64,000 nt of DNA from an uncultured Chitinophagales bacterium. GTDB taxonomy: Bacteria; Bacteroidota; Rhodothermia; Balneolales; HLUCCA01. Below the pieces are notes generated by a model that had not been told where the DNA came from, ran no database searches, and saw nothing but the letters and a program-made list of their open reading frames with translations. Shown here piece after piece: positions 15,361 to 31,364 of this stretch; the stretch's first letter is position 1, and the number at the start of each line of letters is the position of its first letter. The stretch is taken from NCBI GenBank assembly GCA_964473555.1, contig CAYYPL010000003.1, positions 191,166-255,165 on the forward strand, in the 5' to 3' direction. The translations under genes were made by a program, and so were the position numbers.

Positions 15361-16284
15361 TCAACGACGTTGACCCAGAGTTACCTCAAGGCCCTTCTCT
15401 GCTGACAATGTAAATGTACTGCCGGCCGGAAGGACAAACAGCTGCATTCCTGTTGCTCCATGCATGTCGCCTGGTTGAACTAGATTGCTTATTCCATCTA
15501 CGAATAAAACAACCTGACTGTCCCCAATGACTTCAAAATGTCCGCCGGGACGGACCCACAAGGCTGTGGCTTCGTCGATACCTGCTGCGAATTGTTCCGG
15601 ATGATCCAGCAGTGTGCTGATCAACCGATTCATGCGGCTTCGTCGAATGAAATGCTGATCAATGATGATATGTGAGAGAAGTCCGATACCCGGACTGGTA
15701 ACCACATTATCTTTACGAATGGAGGCAAATGCCCGATTTTCGTCCGGACTCACCTCATCACCGGTGATCATGACCCGGCTCATGACCGCAGCACCAGCAC
15801 TGGTACCAGATATCACCGCTCCGTTTCTGTAGGCCTCGTGTATGGCTTCGATCAACATCCCATCGCCAAGGTACTCCATCAACCGATTCTGGTCGCCCCC
15901 GCTGAACCAGATTCCTTTGGCATTTCGGATCTGCTCTGCAATGGCCGGATCCGTTTTATCGTTTTCATCCATCATCAGGACGTCGACCTGTTTTGCACCA
16001 TAGCCATAAAACTGATCACGTTGCTCCCATCCCACCGTGTCTGGTATGGATGACGCCATAGGAATGATCAGAATGCTGCTATCAGGACTAAGCTCAACAA
16101 TCTTGTTCATAATAGACAATGGGCGCGGTCCGCCACCTACAATAACCAGATTACCTCCAGCTGAGTCAGAAGGGCTCGGATCGATAGCCTCAGCACTGAA
16201 TCCGGGTCTTTCTGTTGCTGACTGACTACATGATACTGTCAATAATGTGGCTACGACAAAGGCTAGTTTGATGGTGGATTTCAT
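15361..16284 (-). CDS. cphE: Cyanophycinase (peptidase S51), lipoprotein
   Basis: Motifs LVIVGGG, IWFSGGDQNRL and GTSAGAAVMS (nucleophile Ser). Signal with Cys (LTVSCSQ). Confidence 0.75.
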   Translation of the reverse strand: MKSTIKLAFVVATLLTVSCSQSATERPGFSAEAIDPSPSDSAGGNLVIVGGGPRPLSIMNKIVELSPDSSILIIPMASSIPDTVGWEQRDQFYGYGAKQVDVLMMDENDKTDPAIAEQIRNAKGIWFSGGDQNRLMEYLGDGMLIEAIHEAYRNGAVISGTSAGAAVMSRVMITGDEVSPDENRAFASIRKDNVVTSPGIGLLSHIIIDQHFIRRSRMNRLISTLLDHPEQFAAGIDEATALWVRPGGHFEVIGDSQVVLFVDGISNLVQPGDMHGATGMQLFVLPAGSTFTLSAEKGLEVTLGQRR

Positions 16285-16306
16285 AATATCTGAGTTGCGT
16301 GTATGA

Positions 16307-17404
16307 TTATTGCTGTTGAATCAGATTTCGAATCACTCGTGATGAAGCGTGCAGATCCTCAATCAGGATAAACTCATCGTCGGCATGTGGATTCTGGGCT
16401 CCGATTCCGATATTTATTGCCGGAAATCCGCGGGAGTTTAGGACATTGGCATCACTACCTCCTGTGTATCGAAGTGGGTTGACCTGGAGTCCGGCATCGC
16501 TTAACGCCTTTTCAATTCGTTGAACCATGGTCGATCCGTCAGAATGCGAATACGGTCCGAATTCGCGCACCGAGTTAAACTCAACCCCTGCGCCGTACGA
16601 CGCTGCCACCGATTCGAACAATTCCCGTGTCTCCGCAAGTAGCCTCCGTATTTCGGTGTCATCAACCGCCCTGATTTCTCCTACTACCACGCACTCAGGC
16701 GCCACCACATTCGTGGCCATTCCACCGTGAATCGATCCGATATTGATCGTGGTCATCTCTGCCAAACGACCAATCTGATACCTGGATATGGCATCTGCCG
16801 CCACTTTGATCGCACTGATTCCCGCCTCTGGATTCACCGCAGCATGAGCCGCCTTCCCCTTGAATGAGGCAGTGAATCCATAATTCCCCACACATTCCTT
16901 GATGTACGCTCCCGGGCGTCTGGCACTGTCAAAAACCCACACGGCCCGCACGTTAAATCCGCTTAAATCCAGCACTGCGGCCCCTTTCAACCCAATTTCT
17001 TCCGCAATTGAAAACACCGCAATGTAATTCCTGCTTTCCGCCTTCCACCGCTCCCATTCCGACAGCAGATCCATAACCAAGGCAACCCCTGCGCGGTTAT
17101 CCGCTCCCAGTTGGGAAGTCCCATCCGATTGCAAACGCCCCTCCCTTTCCACTACCTGGATCACCGAAGTATCTCGAACCGTATCCATATGAGCCATAAA
17201 CACATCTACTGGTATGGAACGATCTAAATGATGCGGAACCACGATCAGATTTCCCGTTGTGCCACCGAGCTTCTCCCCGGCATGGTCTTCAATAACATCA
17301 AACGGCAAACCAGTTAACTGCTCACGAATAAAAGCAGCCACTTTGTGCTCTTTGAGCGAGGTACCTTGGATTAATACGAGTTGTTTGAATAAGTCGATTA
17401 GCAT
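16307..17404 (-). CDS. M20-family metallopeptidase (PepT/YqjE-like di/tripeptidase)
   Basis: Motifs AHMDTV, GADNRAGVA and AEEIGLKGA. 365 aa, no signal peptide. Confidence 0.7.
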   Translation of the reverse strand: MLIDLFKQLVLIQGTSLKEHKVAAFIREQLTGLPFDVIEDHAGEKLGGTTGNLIVVPHHLDRSIPVDVFMAHMDTVRDTSVIQVVEREGRLQSDGTSQLGADNRAGVALVMDLLSEWERWKAESRNYIAVFSIAEEIGLKGAAVLDLSGFNVRAVWVFDSARRPGAYIKECVGNYGFTASFKGKAAHAAVNPEAGISAIKVAADAISRYQIGRLAEMTTINIGSIHGGMATNVVAPECVVVGEIRAVDDTEIRRLLAETRELFESVAASYGAGVEFNSVREFGPYSHSDGSTMVQRIEKALSDAGLQVNPLRYTGGSDANVLNSRGFPAINIGIGAQNPHADDEFILIEDLHASSRVIRNLIQQQ

Positions 17405-17480
17405 ATTTATGGTAATGGGAAGTTGGTAGTGGGGAAAATACTCGAACTAATCCCTTTTCCCAAATATCTACTATCTGTTG

Positions 17481-17571
17481 AGTACACAGTTCACAGTACA
17501 CAGTTCACAGTACACAGTACACAGTACACAGTTCACAGTTCACAGTACACAGTTCACAGTACATAGTACAC
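17481..17571. repeat. Tandem heptamer array (AGTWCAC)x13
   Basis: Direct reading gives agtacac agttcac agtacac agttcac agtacac x3 agttcac x2 agtacac agttcac agtacat agtacac. Confidence 0.95.
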
Positions 17572-17633
17572 ATATTGATGTACGCACAAAGCGCAGGAAA
17601 CGCAGAAAGTGCACGAGAACTTTGCTTAAATCA

Positions 17634-17690
17634 CTGCCCTTCCTGATCCTTCTGACCTTTCTGACCCTTCTGATCTTTCTGATCTTTCTC
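17634..17690. repeat. Tandem nonamer array (CTGAYCYTT)x6
   Basis: Direct reading gives ctgcccttc ctgatcctt ctgaccttt ctgaccctt ctgatcttt ctgatcttt. Confidence 0.9.
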
Positions 17691-17827
17691 CACCAGTTCA
17701 AATGAAAACTTACTCCAACCATCATCCATTTAACACATCTTGCTCTCTTGATCTAGATCACTATGAATTCCCAAAAATACCTTCTATCATCCCTCAAACC
17801 CCATTTATCTAACCTATTTCTGCTGTA

Positions 17828-19117
17828 ATGACGTATCAAAGAACGACTCCAGACGAAGCCGTAAAACTCATTAAATCCGGAGACCGTGTGTTTTTGCATG
17901 GAAGTGCGTCAACTCCGATCGATCTTATGGATGCTTTGGCCAGACGGGCCCACGAGCTTCGTGAAGTTGAGTTGGTAAACATAACTACGATTGGTAAAAG
18001 CGAACTGGTCAATCCGAAGTTTAAAGAATCCTTTTTCTTCAACTGCCTGTTTGTTTCCGAAAATCTGAGACCCACCCTTCGTGAGGGCAGAGGCGATTAT
18101 GTTCCGGTATTCCTGAGTGAAATATCACGCCTATTCGAGAAAGGATATTTACCATTGGATGTGGCTATGGTTCAGGTAAGTCCGCCTGACAAGCACGGAT
18201 TTTGTTCCCTGGGAACTTCCGTAGATGTGGCTCGATCGGCAGTCAAACACGCTAAACTGGTCATTGCTCAGATTAACAAGCACATTCCTCGAACCCACGG
18301 CGATGGAATTTTGCATATTTCAGATGCCAATGCGGTGGTTGAAATGGATCGTCCATTACCTGAAGTCAATTATGCTGCAGGACTCACGGAAGCTGACCAT
18401 AAAATAGGTCATTATATCGCTGAGCTCATTGAAGATGGCTCAACACTTCAGATGGGAATTGGATCCATTCCGGATGCGGTTTTATTATGCCTGAATTCCC
18501 ACAAAGACCTGGGGATTCACACGGAAATGTTTTCCGATGGTTTAATTCCTCTGTTAGAGTCGGGTGTGGTTACGAATTCCATGAAGCGTAAGCACCAGGG
18601 CAAAGTGGTATCCTCATTTGCAGTTGGAACTCAAAAATTGTACGATATGGTGGATGATAATCCCCTATTCACCTTTTTGGAAGCTGAATATGTAAACGAT
18701 ACAGCGGTTATTCGTCAGAATCCGAAAGTAGTAGCTATCAATTCAGCCATTGAAATCGATCTTACAGGACAAGTTTGCGCAGATTCGATCGGAACGGTGC
18801 AATTTTCGGGGGTTGGTGGACAAATGGATTTCATCAGGGGTGCATCCTTGTCGCAGGGAGGTAAACCGATTATCGCCATGCAATCTACCACCCCGAGAGG
18901 TGTCAGTAAGATCACTCCATTCTTGAAGGAAGGTGCAGGTGTTGTGACCACTCGTGCCCACACCCAGTATGTCGTGACCGAATATGGTGTGGCCAATCTG
19001 TACGGGAAAAATCTACGTCAACGGGCTCAGGCTCTTCGGGATATTGCACATCCTGATCACAGGGAAGAGTTGGATAGAGCTATTCATTTTCGCTTCGCGA
19101 GTGGAGAGCGTGACTGA
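17828..19117 (+). CDS. Acetyl-CoA hydrolase/transferase family (4-hydroxybutyrate/succinate CoA-transferase-like)
   Basis: 429 aa, with family-typical length and segments (LQMGIGSIPDAV, GQVCADSIG, SGVGGQMDF). Confidence 0.8.
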   Translation: MTYQRTTPDEAVKLIKSGDRVFLHGSASTPIDLMDALARRAHELREVELVNITTIGKSELVNPKFKESFFFNCLFVSENLRPTLREGRGDYVPVFLSEISRLFEKGYLPLDVAMVQVSPPDKHGFCSLGTSVDVARSAVKHAKLVIAQINKHIPRTHGDGILHISDANAVVEMDRPLPEVNYAAGLTEADHKIGHYIAELIEDGSTLQMGIGSIPDAVLLCLNSHKDLGIHTEMFSDGLIPLLESGVVTNSMKRKHQGKVVSSFAVGTQKLYDMVDDNPLFTFLEAEYVNDTAVIRQNPKVVAINSAIEIDLTGQVCADSIGTVQFSGVGGQMDFIRGASLSQGGKPIIAMQSTTPRGVSKITPFLKEGAGVVTTRAHTQYVVTEYGVANLYGKNLRQRAQALRDIAHPDHREELDRAIHFRFASGERD

Positions 19118-19356
19118 CGTCATGTTGAGTACAGCTTCGCTGTGGAGAGTGGTGCTTTGCTCCGGAGAGTTTTACTTCGCGGTGGGGCGTCTTCGACGCA
19201 GTTGGGCTGCACGGGAGGGAATGAATGGATAAAATCCGATTTTTAGGGAAGCTGCCCTTTCTGCACCCGTGCACTTCGTGCGCTATTTGGAATATATTGC
19301 TTGCCCGTTTTCCTGCTTGCCTGCTTTCCAGTTAGACCGCTGGTTTACTTATATAT

Positions 19357-19389
19357 GAAAAAGGGCTGAGACAATTTCTGCCTCAACCC
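19357..19389 (-). terminator. Rho-independent terminator of the TBDR gene
   Basis: The minus strand reads GGGTTGAG-11nt-CTCAGCCC followed by TTTTTC, about 60 nt after the stop. Confidence 0.6.
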
Positions 19390-19451
19390 TTTCTTCAGTT
19401 TTCTGTTTTCCGTGATCTCTTCTCAACAAAATCCTCAACAGTGGATTTTGG

Positions 19452-22196
19452 CTAGAACTTCAACGTCAGTCGAGAGTAGATATATCTACCATCAAATCCG
19501 AATGGGGTTAATCCACTATACTGGAAAATACCAAAGTTACTGCTAGGTTGCAGGGTTCGGTCTGGATACACATCGAAGAGGTTGTTCACCCCAACAGCAA
19601 AACGTGTACCCGTAGCAACCTCTCTGGAAATCTCCAGGTCGGTGATGAATTTTTCGCTGTACGTCTGATCCAGGTTAGGATTTGAGGTGTGATAAGATTT
19701 ATACTCACCAAATCTGTTCACACGGATCAATACATCCCAGGCGTCTCTGGACACACTTATCGAAGACTGAATCGAACTACTTGGCTGACCTTCTTCATAC
19801 CGTCCTTGCTCTACGCGTCCGAATAGCGGTACTGAGGTGTATTGTGCCAGAGCAGATGGTGTGGTGATTTCATCTTTGTTCGTGATCTCTGTCTGAGTGA
19901 TGTTTGCTCCCAGTGTTGTCCGGATGGTATAATCCTCAACCTGAATAGCATATCGGGCAATGATATCAACTCCAGTAGTTCTTGAGTCCACCGCATTGGT
20001 GAAATAGCGACCACCGGTAGCATTTACACCCTGAGTAGATAAGAAACTTTGCAGTGATCCACCCGGACCAGAGCCGGTAAAGTTCTCACTAACTACTACC
20101 CTGTCTGTGATGCTGATGTTGTAATAGTCAGCTGTTAGACTGAAATTACCACGCTGGAAGGTTACTCCTCCACTGAGGTTAACTGATTTTTCGGCTTCCA
20201 GATCTATAGCTCCCAAAGCACGTGCGGCCGGACTACTAACTGGGAAAGTTCCAATTTCAAATGGAATTCCATTGATAAAGTTTGTAGAAACCGCTGAGAA
20301 ATACGACTGTGCCAATGATGGTGCACGGAATCCGGTACTAAATGCTCCACGCACTGCCAGGCCTTCGATAAACTCATATCGTCCGCTTACTTTACCTGTA
20401 AAGATGGATCCAAAGTCAGAATAGTTTTCGAAGCGAAGTGCGGCACCCATCAAAAGTTGTGAAGTGATGTCATTCTCTGCATCGAGGTAAAGTCCGATAT
20501 TTGTCCGTGATTCATCTGTGGCGTTTCTTGGGGTAAATCCAGGAAATACCTGGGCACCAGGAGCTTTTCCAGCAACGGGTCCCGCTACAAATGAAGGTGC
20601 TTCACCAGCCTCGATCTGATAGTTTTCGTATCTGAACTCAGCTCCCATAGCCACAGTCATCGGACTCGCCGTCCCAATTTCCAACGTTCTGACCATATCA
20701 AAATTGGTACTAGCCTGTGTAAAGATCAGAGCTCCAGCATAGAATTTGGATGGGCTTGTCGGACCAAATGATGCGTTCAATGATTTATTGACCCCGAACT
20801 CAAGTCGGTTACGACCAATGGTCTCACTCAAATCGTAGTTCCATTCGCCCATACTTCCACGAACTCCTGTTGCAACAGAAAAGTCAGATATATTGGTCTC
20901 GATATGCGGTAAAAATCCGTCGGGATAAATCTCCAGGGTGTTTCGGGCATCCAATGCACGGCGATAGAATCCTGCTGCACTACCCTGACGATTCGATAAA
21001 CCACCAAATGCATACCAGGTTTTGTCATCACTGATGTCATATTCAGCATTATAGAATAAACTTAAGTCCTGGAGCTCGGCACTTCCGTACTTGTGGTTGA
21101 TTCTGTTGAATGTAGCCTCCCGTGGATCGTTCGCAGTGGGATATTGTTGGCGTGGGTCCAATCCTGCTCGGTTTGTCGGATCCTGATTACGGAACTGACC
21201 AGCAATATAGAAATTCCCTCTCTCTCCAAGATCTCCACCGTATCCAAGGTGCAAGCTAAGACTCTTACCGTCGGTGTAGGTTACTTTATCTTCCAGGAAC
21301 CGTGAGTTTCCTGCCCAAGACTCTGGAGTTCCATTCATCGGTAGCGCCTCGTTGGTTTTATAACCACGCTGAGTCACGCTATAGTTTTGACCATAGGTCA
21401 TAGATGCATCGAATCCGCTATCTTTTTTTAACACGATATTAATCACCCCTGCAATGGCATCAGAACCATACTGGGCAGCTGCACCGTCACGCAGAACTTC
21501 AATACGCTCGATCATATTTGAGGGAATCGCGTTCAGGTCAACACCCGTTGCACCACGTCCGACAGATCCGTTCAAGTGGACCAAAGCACTGGTATGGCGA
21601 CGCTTTCCGTTTACCAGAACCAATACCTGGTCAGGGCCAAGTCCACGCAATGTAGCCGGATTCACATGATCCGTTCCATCGGTGACCGACGACTTTGGCG
21701 AATTGAAACTAGGCACTAGCTGACGAATGATCGCTGTGGTTTGCATATAGCCAAACTGCTCCAACTCAACCCCGGATATCACGTCAACTGGTACAGTCGA
21801 CTCGATCACTGTCCGTTCAGTCGATCGTGTTCCCAAAACGATGATATCATCAGCACCAATGAGGTCAGGATTCATATCAAAGTTGAGGTTTACCGTTTGT
21901 CCGGCTGCAACTGTTACACTTTGGCGCAGTGGCGCATAACCCACAAATGTAGCCCTAAGCTGATAGGTTCCAGCTGTCAGGGTGAGTGAGTAGGCACCTT
22001 CGAGATTAGCCGTCGAACCTCGTGTTTGTCCCACGACCGATACATTTGCCCCGGTTAATACCTCTCCGTTGGTGGCATCTCGTACAATGCCCGTTACGGT
22101 TCCCGTTGACTGAGCTACCAAATCCATAGTAGCCGTAAACAACATCACCGCAATAGCCAGGCTAAAAGCCCGCATGCTGTAGTAGTTTTTTTTCAT
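19452..22196 (-). CDS. TonB-dependent receptor with CarbopepD_reg N-domain, substrate unknown
   Basis: N-terminal VTGIVRDATNGEVLTGANVSV, a plug domain, the C-terminal residues LTLKF with terminal Phe, 914 aa. Confidence 0.85.
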   Translation of the reverse strand: MKKNYYSMRAFSLAIAVMLFTATMDLVAQSTGTVTGIVRDATNGEVLTGANVSVVGQTRGSTANLEGAYSLTLTAGTYQLRATFVGYAPLRQSVTVAAGQTVNLNFDMNPDLIGADDIIVLGTRSTERTVIESTVPVDVISGVELEQFGYMQTTAIIRQLVPSFNSPKSSVTDGTDHVNPATLRGLGPDQVLVLVNGKRRHTSALVHLNGSVGRGATGVDLNAIPSNMIERIEVLRDGAAAQYGSDAIAGVINIVLKKDSGFDASMTYGQNYSVTQRGYKTNEALPMNGTPESWAGNSRFLEDKVTYTDGKSLSLHLGYGGDLGERGNFYIAGQFRNQDPTNRAGLDPRQQYPTANDPREATFNRINHKYGSAELQDLSLFYNAEYDISDDKTWYAFGGLSNRQGSAAGFYRRALDARNTLEIYPDGFLPHIETNISDFSVATGVRGSMGEWNYDLSETIGRNRLEFGVNKSLNASFGPTSPSKFYAGALIFTQASTNFDMVRTLEIGTASPMTVAMGAEFRYENYQIEAGEAPSFVAGPVAGKAPGAQVFPGFTPRNATDESRTNIGLYLDAENDITSQLLMGAALRFENYSDFGSIFTGKVSGRYEFIEGLAVRGAFSTGFRAPSLAQSYFSAVSTNFINGIPFEIGTFPVSSPAARALGAIDLEAEKSVNLSGGVTFQRGNFSLTADYYNISITDRVVVSENFTGSGPGGSLQSFLSTQGVNATGGRYFTNAVDSRTTGVDIIARYAIQVEDYTIRTTLGANITQTEITNKDEITTPSALAQYTSVPLFGRVEQGRYEEGQPSSSIQSSISVSRDAWDVLIRVNRFGEYKSYHTSNPNLDQTYSEKFITDLEISREVATGTRFAVGVNNLFDVYPDRTLQPSSNFGIFQYSGLTPFGFDGRYIYSRLTLKF

Positions 22197-22550
22197 TAAT
22201 TCTCCTGTTATTTTGGTTTTTCATCACATCTATACCGAGAGTGGATGTTACTCTCAGCGTTATCAGACAATGTGCTGGAACAGCGATATCACTGCCAGCT
22301 CAAAGACCTAAATGACTCGATACATCCATTCGATGGCTAATATAAACAATTGTTGAAAAGTTCCAATTATTACAAGTTTGAAGTATCAATAAATTATAGA
22401 GTTGCCGGAAAGCTTTCAGATTGATTCATTGCATATTTACCCAACTTTTCTATCTTTCCGTCAGTGACAGAGCCCATTTGTACGGAAAGCTGGATGCACA
22501 TCTGTTTTGTCACCTTTTTTTAATCCATAAGCCGAACAACGACACTATCT

Positions 22551-24251
22551 ATGAAGCGCTTAGTTGAACTATCAATACTCCTGTACTTTTTAATCGTACC
22601 TGGAGTGACTTTAGCCCAGGTCGGGTACATGAAATCATTTGATCACGCAGCTGTTGTAAGTGCCACTCAACAGGCATCAGAAGCAGGGATAGAAATCCTA
22701 CGCAAAGGAGGAAACGCAGTAGATGCAGCCGTTGCAACTAAATTTGCCCTGGCTGTTACATTCCCGGCTGCCGGAAACATCGGAGGTGGCGGTTTTATGG
22801 TTTATCGTGCCGCAGATGGTACCTCCGCGACCCTCGACTTTCGTGAAATGGCTCCCGCAGCTGCACATCGTGACATGTACCTGGATGCCGGGGGTGAAGT
22901 CGTCGATGGTCTGAGTACCTACGGACACTTGGCCTCAGGCGTACCCGGAACGGTAGATGGGATGATTACTGCGCTTCAAAAGTATGGTTCACTGCCTCTG
23001 GATGTGGTGATAGAGCCGGCGATTCGACTTGCTCGCGAAGGGTTTAATTTGTCGTGGCGCGAGGCGACTGCATTGAACCGAAACCGCTCCCGATTCGCAT
23101 ATTTTGAATCCTCTTCGAAGTATTTCACCAAGCCTGAGGGCGAACAATTTGTAGAGGGTGAACTTTTCAAACAGGAGGACCTGGCACAAACCCTGGAACG
23201 AATCGCCAGTCAGGGTCGGGACGGATTCTACGCTGGAGAAACAGCAGATTACATCGTCGCTGAAATGCAGAACAATGGTGGAATCATTACTCACGAGGAT
23301 CTTAAGAACTACAAAAGTGTCTGGCGCGATCCACTGAAGGTGAACTATCATGACTACGAACTGTTGATCATGGGACCACCAAGCAGCGGTGGTATCGCTT
23401 TGGGACAAATGCTTAAAATGCTTGAACCCTACAACCTCAAGCGACTCGGTTACAATACTCCTGAAACGGTCCATTTAGTCACTGAAACGATGCGTCGGGT
23501 ATACGCCGACCGAGCTGAATTCCTGGGTGATCCTGACTTTTATGATGTTCCTGCCAATGAACTTTTGACGACCAGATACGCCCGTGAACGCATGCAGTCG
23601 TTTAATCCGGCACGAGCAAGTCGCAGCGACGAAATTTCGCATGGTCAACCCCTTGCCTGGGCCGAGTCAGAAGAAACGACCCACTTTTCGGTAGTAGATG
23701 CCGCTGGAAATGCAGTTTCCATTACTACAACCCTCAATGGTGGATATGGATCGTACGTCTCAATAGGTGGGGCTGGATTCCTGATGAACAATGAAATGGA
23801 CGATTTTTCGATCAAGCCGGGATTTCCGAATATGTTTGGTCTGGTTGGAGGCGAAGCCAACTCCGTTCAACCGGGAAAACGTATGCTAAGCAGCATGACT
23901 CCAACAATCGTGAGTAAAAGTGGAAAACTCACTATGATTTTGGGTACTCCTGGAGGGTCAACCATTATCACGACCGTACTTCAAGTGTTTTTAAATGTCG
24001 CTGAATACGGAATGAACATCCAACAGGCTGTGGCTTCACCCAGATTTCATCATCAGTGGCTGCCAGATCAGCTTTATTTTGAGCCCTTTATGTTTAATCT
24101 ACATACCAGGGAACGACTACATTGGATGGGGCACAATCTTAGTGAACGGAGTTATTACACGGGTCAAGCTGATTGTATTCTTGTAACAGAGTCAGGCCGT
24201 ATTGATACCGGTGTTGATCCACGGGGTGATAATTACGCTGCAGGCTATTGA
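22551..24251 (+). CDS. ggt: Gamma-glutamyltranspeptidase
   Basis: Signal peptide. The autoprocessing site ETTHFSVVDAAGNAVSITTTLN and the GGxxMNNEMDDF motif are present. Confidence 0.9.
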   Translation: MKRLVELSILLYFLIVPGVTLAQVGYMKSFDHAAVVSATQQASEAGIEILRKGGNAVDAAVATKFALAVTFPAAGNIGGGGFMVYRAADGTSATLDFREMAPAAAHRDMYLDAGGEVVDGLSTYGHLASGVPGTVDGMITALQKYGSLPLDVVIEPAIRLAREGFNLSWREATALNRNRSRFAYFESSSKYFTKPEGEQFVEGELFKQEDLAQTLERIASQGRDGFYAGETADYIVAEMQNNGGIITHEDLKNYKSVWRDPLKVNYHDYELLIMGPPSSGGIALGQMLKMLEPYNLKRLGYNTPETVHLVTETMRRVYADRAEFLGDPDFYDVPANELLTTRYARERMQSFNPARASRSDEISHGQPLAWAESEETTHFSVVDAAGNAVSITTTLNGGYGSYVSIGGAGFLMNNEMDDFSIKPGFPNMFGLVGGEANSVQPGKRMLSSMTPTIVSKSGKLTMILGTPGGSTIITTVLQVFLNVAEYGMNIQQAVASPRFHHQWLPDQLYFEPFMFNLHTRERLHWMGHNLSERSYYTGQADCILVTESGRIDTGVDPRGDNYAAGY

Positions 24252-29212: not shown

Positions 29213-29355
29213 TAGGGAAGTAGGGAGTAGGGAGTAGGGAGTGGGTAGTAGGTAGTAGGAAGTAGGTGGGAGTTGGTATTCTCACTCCCTACTCCCCACT
29301 CCCCACTACCCACTACCCACTCCCTACTCCCCACTCCCTACTCCCCACTCCCTAC
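29213..29355. repeat. Palindromic pair of heptamer arrays (TAGGGAG-type / CTCCCTA-type)
   Basis: The left arm (29213-29272) is built of tagggag/tgggtag/taggtag units. The right arm (29283-29355) is their complement (actccct actcccc actaccc ...). It sits between convergent genes and overlaps the last codons of the 29324 gene. Confidence 0.9.
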
Positions 29356-31277: not shown

Positions 31278-31364
31278 GGGATTAGGGATTAGGGATTAGA
31301 GTACACGGTTCACGGTACACGGTACACAGTACACAGTACACAGTACACAGTACACAGTACACAG
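31278..31364. repeat. Tandem heptamer arrays (GGGATTA)x3 followed by (GTACACR/GTTCACG)x9
   Basis: Direct reading. The GTWCACA unit family is the same as at 17481-17571. Confidence 0.95.

What the first reader, a model, noticed from the sequence alone, without database searches (positions are those of the whole stretch)
17481..17690. Heptamer (x13) and nonamer (x6) tandem arrays inside a divergent promoter region
(AGTWCAC)x13 and (CTGAYCYTT)x6, plus a purine-rich quasi-repeat between them (GCGCAGGAAACGCAGAAAGTGCACGAGAA), fill most of the 423-nt spacer between the M20 peptidase gene (minus) and the CoA-transferase gene (plus). Slipped-strand changes in unit number would alter promoter spacing, so this is a candidate contingency or phase-variable switch. 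Architecturally it resembles cyanobacterial STRR heptamer arrays, in what looks like an FCB-group genome.
Basis: seen in the sequence. Interest (0 to 1): 0.6.

Follow-up and report, generated by a model that had tools for sequence, protein, structure and literature searches.

The report
Genome-wide heptamer repeat arrays, local copy
The two tandem-repeat arrays between the peptidase and CoA-transferase genes are real, but they are one local copy of a repeat class found at well over 100 sites in this uncultured Bacteroidota genome, they fill a gap left by the loss of a transporter gene, and they lie outside the conserved control region, so they are most likely ordinary fast-evolving spacer DNA and not a dedicated on/off switch.

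Summary
Both arrays exist as described: AGTWCAC x13.1 at 17481-17572 and CTGAYCYTT x6.2 at 17634-17689. They are not specific to this locus. The 3.14-Mb genome has 205 period-7 arrays built from 48 unit types, including 31 AGTACAC-type arrays. About 75% of the arrays lie in the 11% of the genome that is non-coding, and they show no strand bias relative to genes. They are rarest in divergent (promoter-only) spacers, at 10% against 24% of convergent spacers.

Three same-genus genomes carry a DcuC/YfcC-type transporter gene between the M20 and CoA-transferase genes. This genome has lost it. The 318 nt that replace it (17406-17723) hold all the arrays. The conserved CoA-transferase upstream block (17724-17827) lies outside them.

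The longest run of identical units is 3, which makes a poor slippage substrate. Between sister species, array sites are conserved (23 shared, 8 and 3 unique, of 241 spacers), but unit type and number differ at nearly all of them. Slippage-type change is therefore real on an evolutionary scale.

The class is known: LSSR/STRR-like repeats, Xanthomonas/Nostoc GGGNATC, Beggiatoaceae TAACTGA. This scan has reported it before, on another piece of this genome and in at least 10 other genomes.

The parts
16307..17404 (-). M20-family peptidase gene (365 aa). In same-genus relatives it is the gene downstream of a DcuC/YfcC-type transporter.
   Evidence: Pfam PF01546 and PF07687. 88% aa identity to G002:C29:15191-16282.
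17406..17723 (.). Lineage-specific 318-nt segment. It replaces 1582 nt in G002 that carry a 452-aa DcuC/YfcC-type transporter gene. It contains all the arrays.
   Evidence: blastn homology to G002 ends at 17405 and resumes at 17724. The G002 insert encodes PF03606 DcuC, 1.7e-46. tblastn finds no homologue of the transporter anywhere in G000.
17411..17434 (.). Decayed heptamer run (GGTAATG GGAAGTT GGTAGTG GGG), 6 nt from the M20 start codon. It belongs to the ACTNCCC/AGTGGGT family.
   Evidence: blastn-short matches heptamer arrays at C5:116195, C4:127128-127199 and other loci. C5:116195-116225 shares the same 'ACCATAAAT' leader, 9 nt ahead of a gene start.
17481..17572 (+). Heptamer array (AGTWCAC) x13.1. 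Unit pattern A T A T A A A T T A T A' A; longest run of identical units is 3.
   Evidence: TRF score 142. One of 31 AGTACAC-type arrays in the genome.
17591..17619 (+). Purine-rich quasi-repeat, about three degenerate 9-mers (GCAGRAARY).
   Evidence: Read directly from the sequence. Only short 13-17-nt similarities elsewhere. It does not pair with the nonamer array in the fold.
17634..17689 (+). Nonamer array (CTGAYCYTT) x6.2.
   Evidence: TRF score 63. Related nonamer runs occur at 10 or more other loci, two of them next to AGTACAC arrays: C3:307486 and C2:250434.
17724..17827 (+). Conserved upstream block of the CoA-transferase gene, with an invariant ACACATCTTGCT core at 17733-17744. It is the probable promoter/leader of that gene and lies outside the arrays.
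   Evidence: blastn to G002. Three-species alignment A1.
17828..19117 (+). Acetyl-CoA hydrolase/transferase-family gene (429 aa).
   Evidence: Pfam PF13336 and PF02550. Orthologues in 25 of 31 relatives.

Best explanation
The two arrays are local copies of a genus-restricted, genome-wide class of short-unit (7-9 nt) tandem arrays. These are long simple-sequence repeats of the STRR / GGGNATC / TAACTGA kind. They grow and shrink by replication slippage, and their units are drawn from a vocabulary shared between loci.

In this lineage, the DcuC/YfcC-type transporter gene that sits between the M20 peptidase and CoA-transferase genes in all three congeners was lost. The 318-nt segment now in its place consists largely of such arrays. 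The CoA-transferase keeps its conserved 104-nt upstream block to the right of the arrays.

M20 used to lie behind the transporter. It must now be transcribed either from inside the new segment or from the old divergent promoter region. In the second case the arrays would form part of its leader.

The arrays are therefore best read as tolerated, mutable spacer DNA with at most an incidental effect on expression, not as a selected phase-variation device.

Shown: the arrays, their genome-wide distribution, the gene loss, the conserved block, and unit-number and unit-type turnover between species.
Inferred: slippage as the mechanism, loss rather than gain of the transporter (parsimony), the promoter positions, and the absence of a dedicated function.
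For: - Genome-wide class: 205 period-7 TRF rows with 48 unit types. About 75% lie in the roughly 11% of the genome that is non-coding.
- There are 31 AGTACAC-type arrays. The same variant units recur at many loci: AGTTCAC at 13 loci, AGAGCAC at 12, AGTGCAC at 10.
- Depleted in divergent spacers: arrays in 10% of divergent, 15% of tandem and 24% of convergent spacers of 100 nt or more. Divergent vs convergent p=1.4e-4.
- No sense/antisense preference: 37 vs 48.
- Gene loss: G002, G001 and G003 all have a transporter gene between M20 and the CoA-transferase. Homology breaks at 17405 and 17724.
- The CoA-transferase upstream block is conserved outside the arrays.
- In G002 a different, perfect array, (AGCGGTTG)x4.1, abuts the M20 start codon. 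This fits the genome-wide pattern of conserved array sites with changing content: 23 shared, 8 and 3 unique, of 241 spacers, OR 198.
- The array types are restricted to this genus among the 31 genomes searched.
- The spacer has no significant secondary structure (z=0.08).
- The literature describes the same class with the same distribution. It is under-represented between divergent ORFs and not tied to surface genes (PMC4692102). In some Bacteroidetes, relatives have shorter repeat-free spacers (PMC4679880).
Against: - No transcription data, so a promoter or leader role for M20 cannot be excluded. M20 lost its upstream operon partner, and only 76 nt separate its ATG from the heptamer array.
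- Strong conservation of array sites between species could reflect selection for having an array there.
- A Nostoc preprint reports that deleting a promoter-proximal heptamer array changes regulator effects on a reporter (10.1101/2022.06.06.494920).
- Within-population length variation was not testable.
Confidence: 0.7

Rival explanations
1. Phase-variable or rheostat switch. Slippage changes the number of heptamer or nonamer units, and that changes transcription of M20 and/or the CoA-transferase.
For: - At hmw1A, heptanucleotide SSRs between two promoters tune expression, with more units giving less transcript (PMC8262952).
- Unit numbers in this class differ between sister species.
- After the transporter loss, M20 must draw its promoter or leader from this spacer.
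Against: - The array is interrupted: at most 3 identical units in a row, 88% and 80% matches.
- The class occurs at well over 100 loci beside unrelated genes and is depleted in divergent spacers.
- The flanking genes are metabolic.
- The conserved CoA-transferase control block lies entirely on one side of the arrays.
- Promoter-like matches inside the array are at chance level.
- The first 6.7 units are identical in two independent runs. This is weak evidence.
Confidence: 0.1
2. The arrays are multivalent binding platforms for a DNA- or RNA-binding protein, as part of a global regulatory layer. This has been proposed for TAACTGA repeats and for Nostoc heptamers. Under this reading they would act on the M20 leader or on the divergent promoter region.
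For: - Array sites are conserved between species although their content changes.
- Arrays abut start codons: M20 in both G000 and G002, and C5:116195.
- Published proposals exist (PMC4679880; 10.1101/2022.06.06.494920).
Against: - 48 different unit types and replacement of unit type at orthologous sites argue against a sequence-specific binder.
- No orientation bias relative to transcription.
- No positional preference for starts over stops in same-strand spacers (38 vs 47).
Confidence: 0.12
3. The arrays are repair scars. On this reading, they are written or expanded where DNA was broken and rejoined, so their presence here is a direct consequence of the transporter deletion.
For: - This spacer is a gene-content breakpoint.
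- Arrays occur in 8/47 breakpoint spacers vs 23/468 conserved ones (OR 4.0, p=0.004).
- The neighbouring indel junction (the TonB-dependent receptor gene, absent in G002) also carries tandem repeats.
- MacGregor (PMC4679880) noted a possible link to gene rearrangement.
Against: - The association disappears after controlling for spacer length (7/39 vs 21/202, p=0.18).
- Most arrays sit in spacers with conserved gene adjacency, and most breakpoints have none.
- G002 already has an array next to M20 without the deletion.
Confidence: 0.06
4. Assembly artefact. The contig was joined wrongly across an AGTACAC array shared by two loci, so the apparent gene loss and the spacer are not real.
For: - The genome is a 155-contig MAG.
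- k=31 contigs from two runs break inside this array.
- AGTACAC arrays exist at 31 loci.
Against: - The transporter has no homologue on any G000 contig, at 98.9% completeness.
- The array's A/T unit pattern is locus-specific, and at 92 nt it is shorter than typical large assembly k-mers.
- Both flanks are the expected syntenic neighbours.
Confidence: 0.02

Closest known systems
Genome-wide heptameric long simple-sequence repeats: LSSR with 5-11-nt units (Mrazek, Guo & Shah 2007, as summarised in PMC4679880) and the GGGNATC / GGGGA(C/T)T repeats of Xanthomonas and Nostoc (Rehm et al. 2015, PMC4692102)
   Same: - Tandem 7-nt units, 2 to more than 20 copies, at many dispersed sites.
- Over-represented in non-coding DNA.
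- Under-represented between divergent ORFs.
- Next to general metabolic genes.
- Copy number differs between relatives.
- Other arrays in this genome use G-rich units of the same type, such as GGGGAGT, AGGGAGT and AGGGATT.
   Different: - The two arrays at this locus have no G-tracts, so they cannot form G-quadruplexes.
- The organism is an uncultured Bacteroidota.
- 48 unit types coexist, and unit type is often replaced at orthologous sites.
STRR (short tandemly repeated repetitive) heptamers of heterocystous cyanobacteria (own knowledge: Mazel et al. 1990; not re-read here)
   Same: Heptamer tandem arrays, several unit families per genome, intergenic, function unknown. Some units share a CAGT/ACTG core.
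   Different: Different phylum and different unit sequences. STRR is defined on cyanobacterial units, so this is an analogue and not a member.
TAACTGA intergenic direct repeats of Beggiatoaceae, cyanobacteria and five Bacteroidetes (MacGregor 2015, PMC4679880)
   Same: Heptamer arrays in Bacteroidetes spacers alongside other heptamer repeats. Close relatives have shorter spacers without repeats, and gene content differs at array-bearing spacers. Some arrays lie immediately upstream of start codons.
   Different: Different unit, and here there is no forward-orientation bias relative to the downstream gene. Some AAAACAG arrays in this genome do contain ATAACTG variant units.
Heptanucleotide SSR (ATCTTTC)n between the P2 and P1 promoters of hmw1A/hmw2A in non-typeable Haemophilus influenzae (PMC8262952, PMC12721329)
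   Same: A 7-nt tandem array of 13 or more units in the upstream region of a gene.
   Different: The hmw SSRs are perfect repeats, are confined to adhesin contingency loci, lie between two mapped promoters, and vary within populations. Here the array is interrupted, is one of hundreds, flanks metabolic genes, and has no mapped promoters around it.

Membership tests
Genome-wide heptameric LSSR class (Mrazek 2007; Rehm 2015) | Tandem arrays of 5-11-nt units, longer than chance | tested here: met
   TRF scores 142 and 63.
Genome-wide heptameric LSSR class (Mrazek 2007; Rehm 2015) | Many dispersed copies across the genome, with heptamers the dominant period | tested here: met
   205 period-7 rows, against 24 of period 8 and 41 of period 9. 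There are 31 AGTACAC-type arrays.
Genome-wide heptameric LSSR class (Mrazek 2007; Rehm 2015) | Over-represented in non-coding DNA and under-represented between divergent ORFs | tested here: met
   About 75% of arrays lie in about 11% of the genome. Arrays in 10% of divergent vs 24% of convergent spacers, p=1.4e-4. Gene calls were crude longest-ORF calls.
Genome-wide heptameric LSSR class (Mrazek 2007; Rehm 2015) | Unit number varies between related genomes | tested here: met
   Met for the class at orthologous spacers of G000 and G002. Not testable for this locus, because the spacer has no orthologue.
G-quadruplex-forming GGGNATC-type repeats (Rehm 2015) | A G-tract in each unit, with four or more units | tested here: not met
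   AGTWCAC and CTGAYCYTT have no run of 3 or more G or C. Other arrays in the window do, for example 29213-29352.
Cyanobacterial STRR sensu stricto | Cyanobacterial host and STRR1-3 unit sequences | tested here: not met
   The host is Bacteroidota. The units differ. STRR unit sequences were recalled from memory and not re-read.
SSR contingency / phase-variation locus | Long uninterrupted perfect repeat tract | tested here: not met
   The longest run of identical units is 3, i.e. 21 nt. Matches are 88% and 80%.
SSR contingency / phase-variation locus | Tract lies within an ORF or between functional promoter elements of the regulated gene | tested here: inconclusive
   The conserved CoA-transferase block lies wholly to one side. 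Consensus promoter scans were at chance level. There are no TSS data.
SSR contingency / phase-variation locus | Associated with surface, host-interaction or restriction-modification genes and confined to a few loci | tested here: not met
   The flanking genes are an M20 peptidase and a CoA-transferase. The class is genome-wide.
SSR contingency / phase-variation locus | Tract length heterogeneous within a population | not testable with these tools
There is no same-species contig in the collections.

The most novel reading that the evidence does not exclude
Array sites persist across species while the unit family at a site is replaced from a vocabulary shared between loci. The same variant units also recur at a dozen loci. 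Plain local slippage does not explain either fact. Together they would fit an active process: inter-array conversion, or a site-targeted, templated array-writing activity. Under this reading, that process refilled the spacer after the transporter gene was lost, and the arrays now supply the leader or promoter context of the M20-S51 peptidase operon.
Probability: 0.1. Interest if true: 0.7.

Novelty: new member of a known kind. Interest (0 to 1): 0.25.

Why it matters
As a candidate switch it matters little, because the evidence points to an ordinary copy of a known repeat class. Its main value is as a clean example of that class. The class is known but still unexplained. In this genus it is lineage-restricted. 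Arrays occupy the same spacer sites in sister species while their unit type and number turn over. An array-rich spacer has replaced a whole gene.

If complete genomes or long reads of this genus become available, it would be a good system for asking how heptamer arrays spread between loci and whether they are selected for.

Tried and rejected
- **Read-level heterogeneity.** I did not try read laying, because it takes only ids from that tool.
- **Independent assemblies.** Logan contigs from SRR14492199 and SRR14492188 are identical to the window over 4222 and 1235 nt. Both stop after 6.7 units, which is the k-mer limit, so they say nothing about copy number. The exact CoA-transferase protein is not on record.
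- **Probes of public collections.** An exact 41-nt probe from the spacer middle found nothing in metagenome contigs or genome contigs. Protein-based scans found no same-species locus; the best matches were 75% and 84%.
- **Hairpin or terminator reading.** The whole spacer folds no better than shuffles (z=0.08). The purine-rich stretch does not pair with the nonamer array.
- **Promoter prediction.** One sigma-70-like match lies inside the array, against 1.3 expected by chance. The Bacteroidetes -7 motif TAnnTTTG is not enriched in the window (39 vs 36 expected). Its only hit in the spacer is on the minus strand at 17772-17779. Neither result is usable as evidence.
- **Arrays as marks of rearrangement breakpoints.** The association is suggestive before length control (p=0.004) but not significant after it (p=0.18).
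- **A fixed heptamer+nonamer composite element.** The pairing recurs at C3:307383-307513 in the same order and at C2:250311-250459 with the nonamer inverted. Three co-occurrences are about what chance gives among array-bearing spacers, and the non-array linkers are not shared.
- **ORFs through the arrays.** The 75-aa and 61-aa ORFs were taken as by-products of stop-poor repeats and not pursued.

Full report
**Observation.**
The window holds (AGTWCAC)x13.1 at 17481-17572 (88% matches, TRF score 142) and (CTGAYCYTT)x6.2 at 17634-17689 (80% matches, score 63). A purine-rich stretch at 17591-17619 reads as about three degenerate 9-mers. The arrays lie in the 423-nt spacer between an M20 peptidase gene (16307-17404, minus strand) and an acetyl-CoA hydrolase/transferase-family gene (17828-19117, plus strand). 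The two arrays cover 35% of the spacer. The figure is 48% if the purine-rich stretch and a decayed heptamer run at 17411-17434 are counted.

**The arrays are not specific to this locus.**
- The same window has another AGTACAC array at 31300-31364 and several other heptamer arrays.
- The genome is 3.14 Mb in 155 contigs, 46.8% GC. TRF finds 205 period-7 rows falling into 48 canonical unit types.
- A dedicated scan finds 31 AGTACAC-type arrays of at least 4 units. This one is among the longest at 13 units, but its longest run of identical units is only 3.
- The same variant units recur at many loci: AGTTCAC at 13, AGAGCAC at 12, AGTGCAC at 10.
- With crude longest-ORF gene calls (88.6% coding), about 75% of heptamer arrays fall in the non-coding 11%.
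- In same-strand spacers they show no sense/antisense preference (37 vs 48) and no preference for gene starts over stops.
- Arrays occur in 10% of divergent spacers of 100 nt or more, 15% of same-strand spacers and 24% of convergent spacers. Divergent vs convergent gives OR 0.33, p=1.4e-4. Promoter-only spacers are therefore where the class is rarest.

**What the spacer is.**
- The CoA-transferase has orthologues in 25 of 31 related genomes.
- In all three same-genus genomes, M20 and the CoA-transferase are also divergent neighbours, but about 1.6-1.8 kb apart.
- In G002, the closest relative, the interval holds a 452-aa membrane protein of the DcuC/YfcC carrier family (PF03606, 1.7e-46). It is on the M20 strand, so the arrangement is transporter then M20. 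G001 and G003 have the same gene.
- blastn homology between G000 and G002 stops exactly at the M20 start codon (17405) and resumes at 17724. So 318 nt in G000 replace 1582 nt in G002.
- G000 has no homologue of the transporter on any contig, at 98.9% completeness.
- By parsimony, the transporter was lost in the G000 lineage. Every array of the finding lies in the replacement segment.
- The two ancestral spacers in G002 are 161 nt (transporter to M20) and 166-268 nt (CoA-transferase to transporter). They add up to roughly the present 423 nt.
- G002 carries a different, perfect array, (AGCGGTTG)x4.1, abutting the M20 start codon. In G000 a decayed ACTNCCC-type heptamer run occupies that place.

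**Where the control regions probably are.**
- The 104 nt upstream of the CoA-transferase ATG (17724-17827) are conserved in G002 and partly in G001. They include an invariant ACACATCTTGCT at 17733-17744. This block lies entirely to the right of both arrays.
- Gain or loss of units in a tandem array changes only the distance between sequences on its two sides. I found nothing that places parts of one promoter on both sides.
- Consensus promoter scans are uninformative. One sigma-70-like match lies inside the array, against 1.3 expected by chance. The Bacteroidetes -7 motif is not enriched in the window.
- The spacer has no significant secondary structure (z=0.08).
- M20 has lost its upstream operon partner. 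It must now be transcribed either from within the new segment or from the old divergent promoter region. In the second case both arrays would lie in a roughly 360-nt leader. This is inference and needs TSS data.

**Do unit numbers change?**
Read-level heterogeneity could not be tested.
- Two independent k=31 assemblies are identical to the window, but both break inside the array.
- No same-species contig exists in the collections searched.

As a substitute, I compared 813 kb of the sister species G002 with G000.
- G002 has the same repeat class, at 41 period-7 arrays per Mb against 65 per Mb in G000.
- I compared 241 spacers with conserved gene adjacency, counting arrays of at least 3 copies. 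Arrays are present in both species at 23, in G000 only at 8, and in G002 only at 3. This gives OR 198, p=2e-22. The OR is 115 for spacers of at least 100 nt and 26 for at least 200 nt.
- At nearly all shared sites the copy number differs, for example ACCCACT 12.4 vs 2.6, AACCGCTC 3.8 vs 7.8, and TACTGTG about 5 vs 8.6. Often the unit family differs too.
- So slippage-type change is real on an evolutionary scale, and the contents of arrays turn over quickly. That says nothing about rapid reversible switching at this locus.

**Distribution.**
- AGTACAC arrays: 87 pattern hits in G000, 5 in G002, and none in 29 other relatives.
- ACTCCCY arrays: 143 hits in G000, 77 in G002, 1 in G005.
- AAAACAG arrays: G000 only.
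- G003 has CCCTCAY arrays, seen through the control pattern.

The class is thus confined to this genus among the genomes searched. Repeats are often poorly assembled in MAGs, so 'not found' does not mean 'absent'.

**Other ideas tested.**
- Arrays as scars of rearrangement: 8/47 breakpoint spacers vs 23/468 conserved ones carry arrays (p=0.004). After requiring at least 50 nt of non-array spacer, the figures are 7/39 vs 21/202 (p=0.18). This is not established.
- A fixed heptamer+nonamer composite: the pairing recurs at two other loci, once with the nonamer inverted, and the linkers are not shared. It is a loose association, not an element.

**Comparison with what is known.**
- The class matches the heptameric long simple-sequence repeats surveyed by Mrazek et al. 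2007 (as summarised in PMC4679880).
- It also matches the Xanthomonas/Nostoc GGGNATC repeats. Those are over-represented in non-coding DNA, under-represented between divergent ORFs, and sit next to metabolic genes. The authors judged phase variation unlikely (PMC4692102).
- MacGregor (PMC4679880) described long heptamer arrays in some Bacteroidetes whose close relatives have shorter repeat-free spacers, and noted gene-content differences at such spacers. This locus is another example.
That tract is perfect, confined to adhesin genes, and flanked by mapped promoters. None of these features is met here.
- A Nostoc preprint reports modest effects on reporter output from deleting a promoter-proximal heptamer array (10.1101/2022.06.06.494920). 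An incidental influence on expression therefore cannot be ruled out.

**Earlier notes of this scan.**
Earlier notes describe the same class on another piece of this genome and in at least 10 other genomes, with the same overall verdict. I used them as leads only. The counts above are my own.

**Verdict.**
The arrays are a new member of a known, still unexplained repeat class. The locus-specific addition is that the array-rich spacer replaces a lost transporter gene.

Noticed in passing
window 19118-22612 (TonB-dependent receptor gene 19452-22196, minus strand): This roughly 3.5-kb stretch, just downstream of the CoA-transferase, corresponds to only 317 nt in the syntenic G002 contig. So the receptor gene is a gene-content difference on the other side of the same gene. 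Its junction spacer holds other tandem repeats: a 20-mer x2.6 at 19134-19185 and an 8/16-mer at 19298-19329.
   Followed up: partly
window 17733-17744 and 17763-17828: ACACATCTTGCT is invariant upstream of the CoA-transferase in three species. A 21-codon upstream ORF begins at a conserved ATGAA, and its TAA stop overlaps the CoA-transferase ATG (TAATG). The ATG is conserved in G002 and G001, but the reading frame and length are not.
   Followed up: partly
L029 (G002:C29), 15158-15190 in contig coordinates: A perfect octamer array, (AGCGGTTG)x4.1, directly abuts the start codon of the M20 orthologue in the sister species, inside what looks like an operon (transporter then M20).
   Followed up: partly
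G000 C5:116195-116233: An ACTNCCC-type heptamer array is followed by the same 'ACCATAAAT' leader as at M20. It lies 9 nt upstream of the start of a gene whose N-terminus (MNNVTLKIEGMTCASC...) looks like a heavy-metal P-type ATPase.
   Followed up: no
G000 C2:14466-14772: Long AAAACAG arrays contain ATAACTG variant units. In tandem these spell the TAACTGA heptamer described in Beggiatoaceae, cyanobacteria and some Bacteroidetes (PMC4679880). AAAACAG arrays were found only in G000 among the 31 genomes searched.
   Followed up: no
window 29213-29352 vs G002:C29:5466-5595: The inverted heptamer pair between convergent genes is present at the orthologous site in G002, with different arm lengths: 7.6 + 10 units here, 10.1 + 5.7 there.
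   Followed up: partly
window 15361-17404: The M20 peptidase and S51 (cyanophycinase-family) peptidase genes form a same-strand pair. In the congeners a DcuC/YfcC-type carrier precedes them. The loss of the carrier in this genome may have changed how substrate reaches this peptidase pair.
   Followed up: no
earlier notes on this genome: Earlier notes of the scan label this genome Balneolales in one place and Chitinophagales in another. The nearest named relative I found is only 'Bacteroidetes bacterium UBA11400', so the order-level placement is unresolved here.
   Followed up: no
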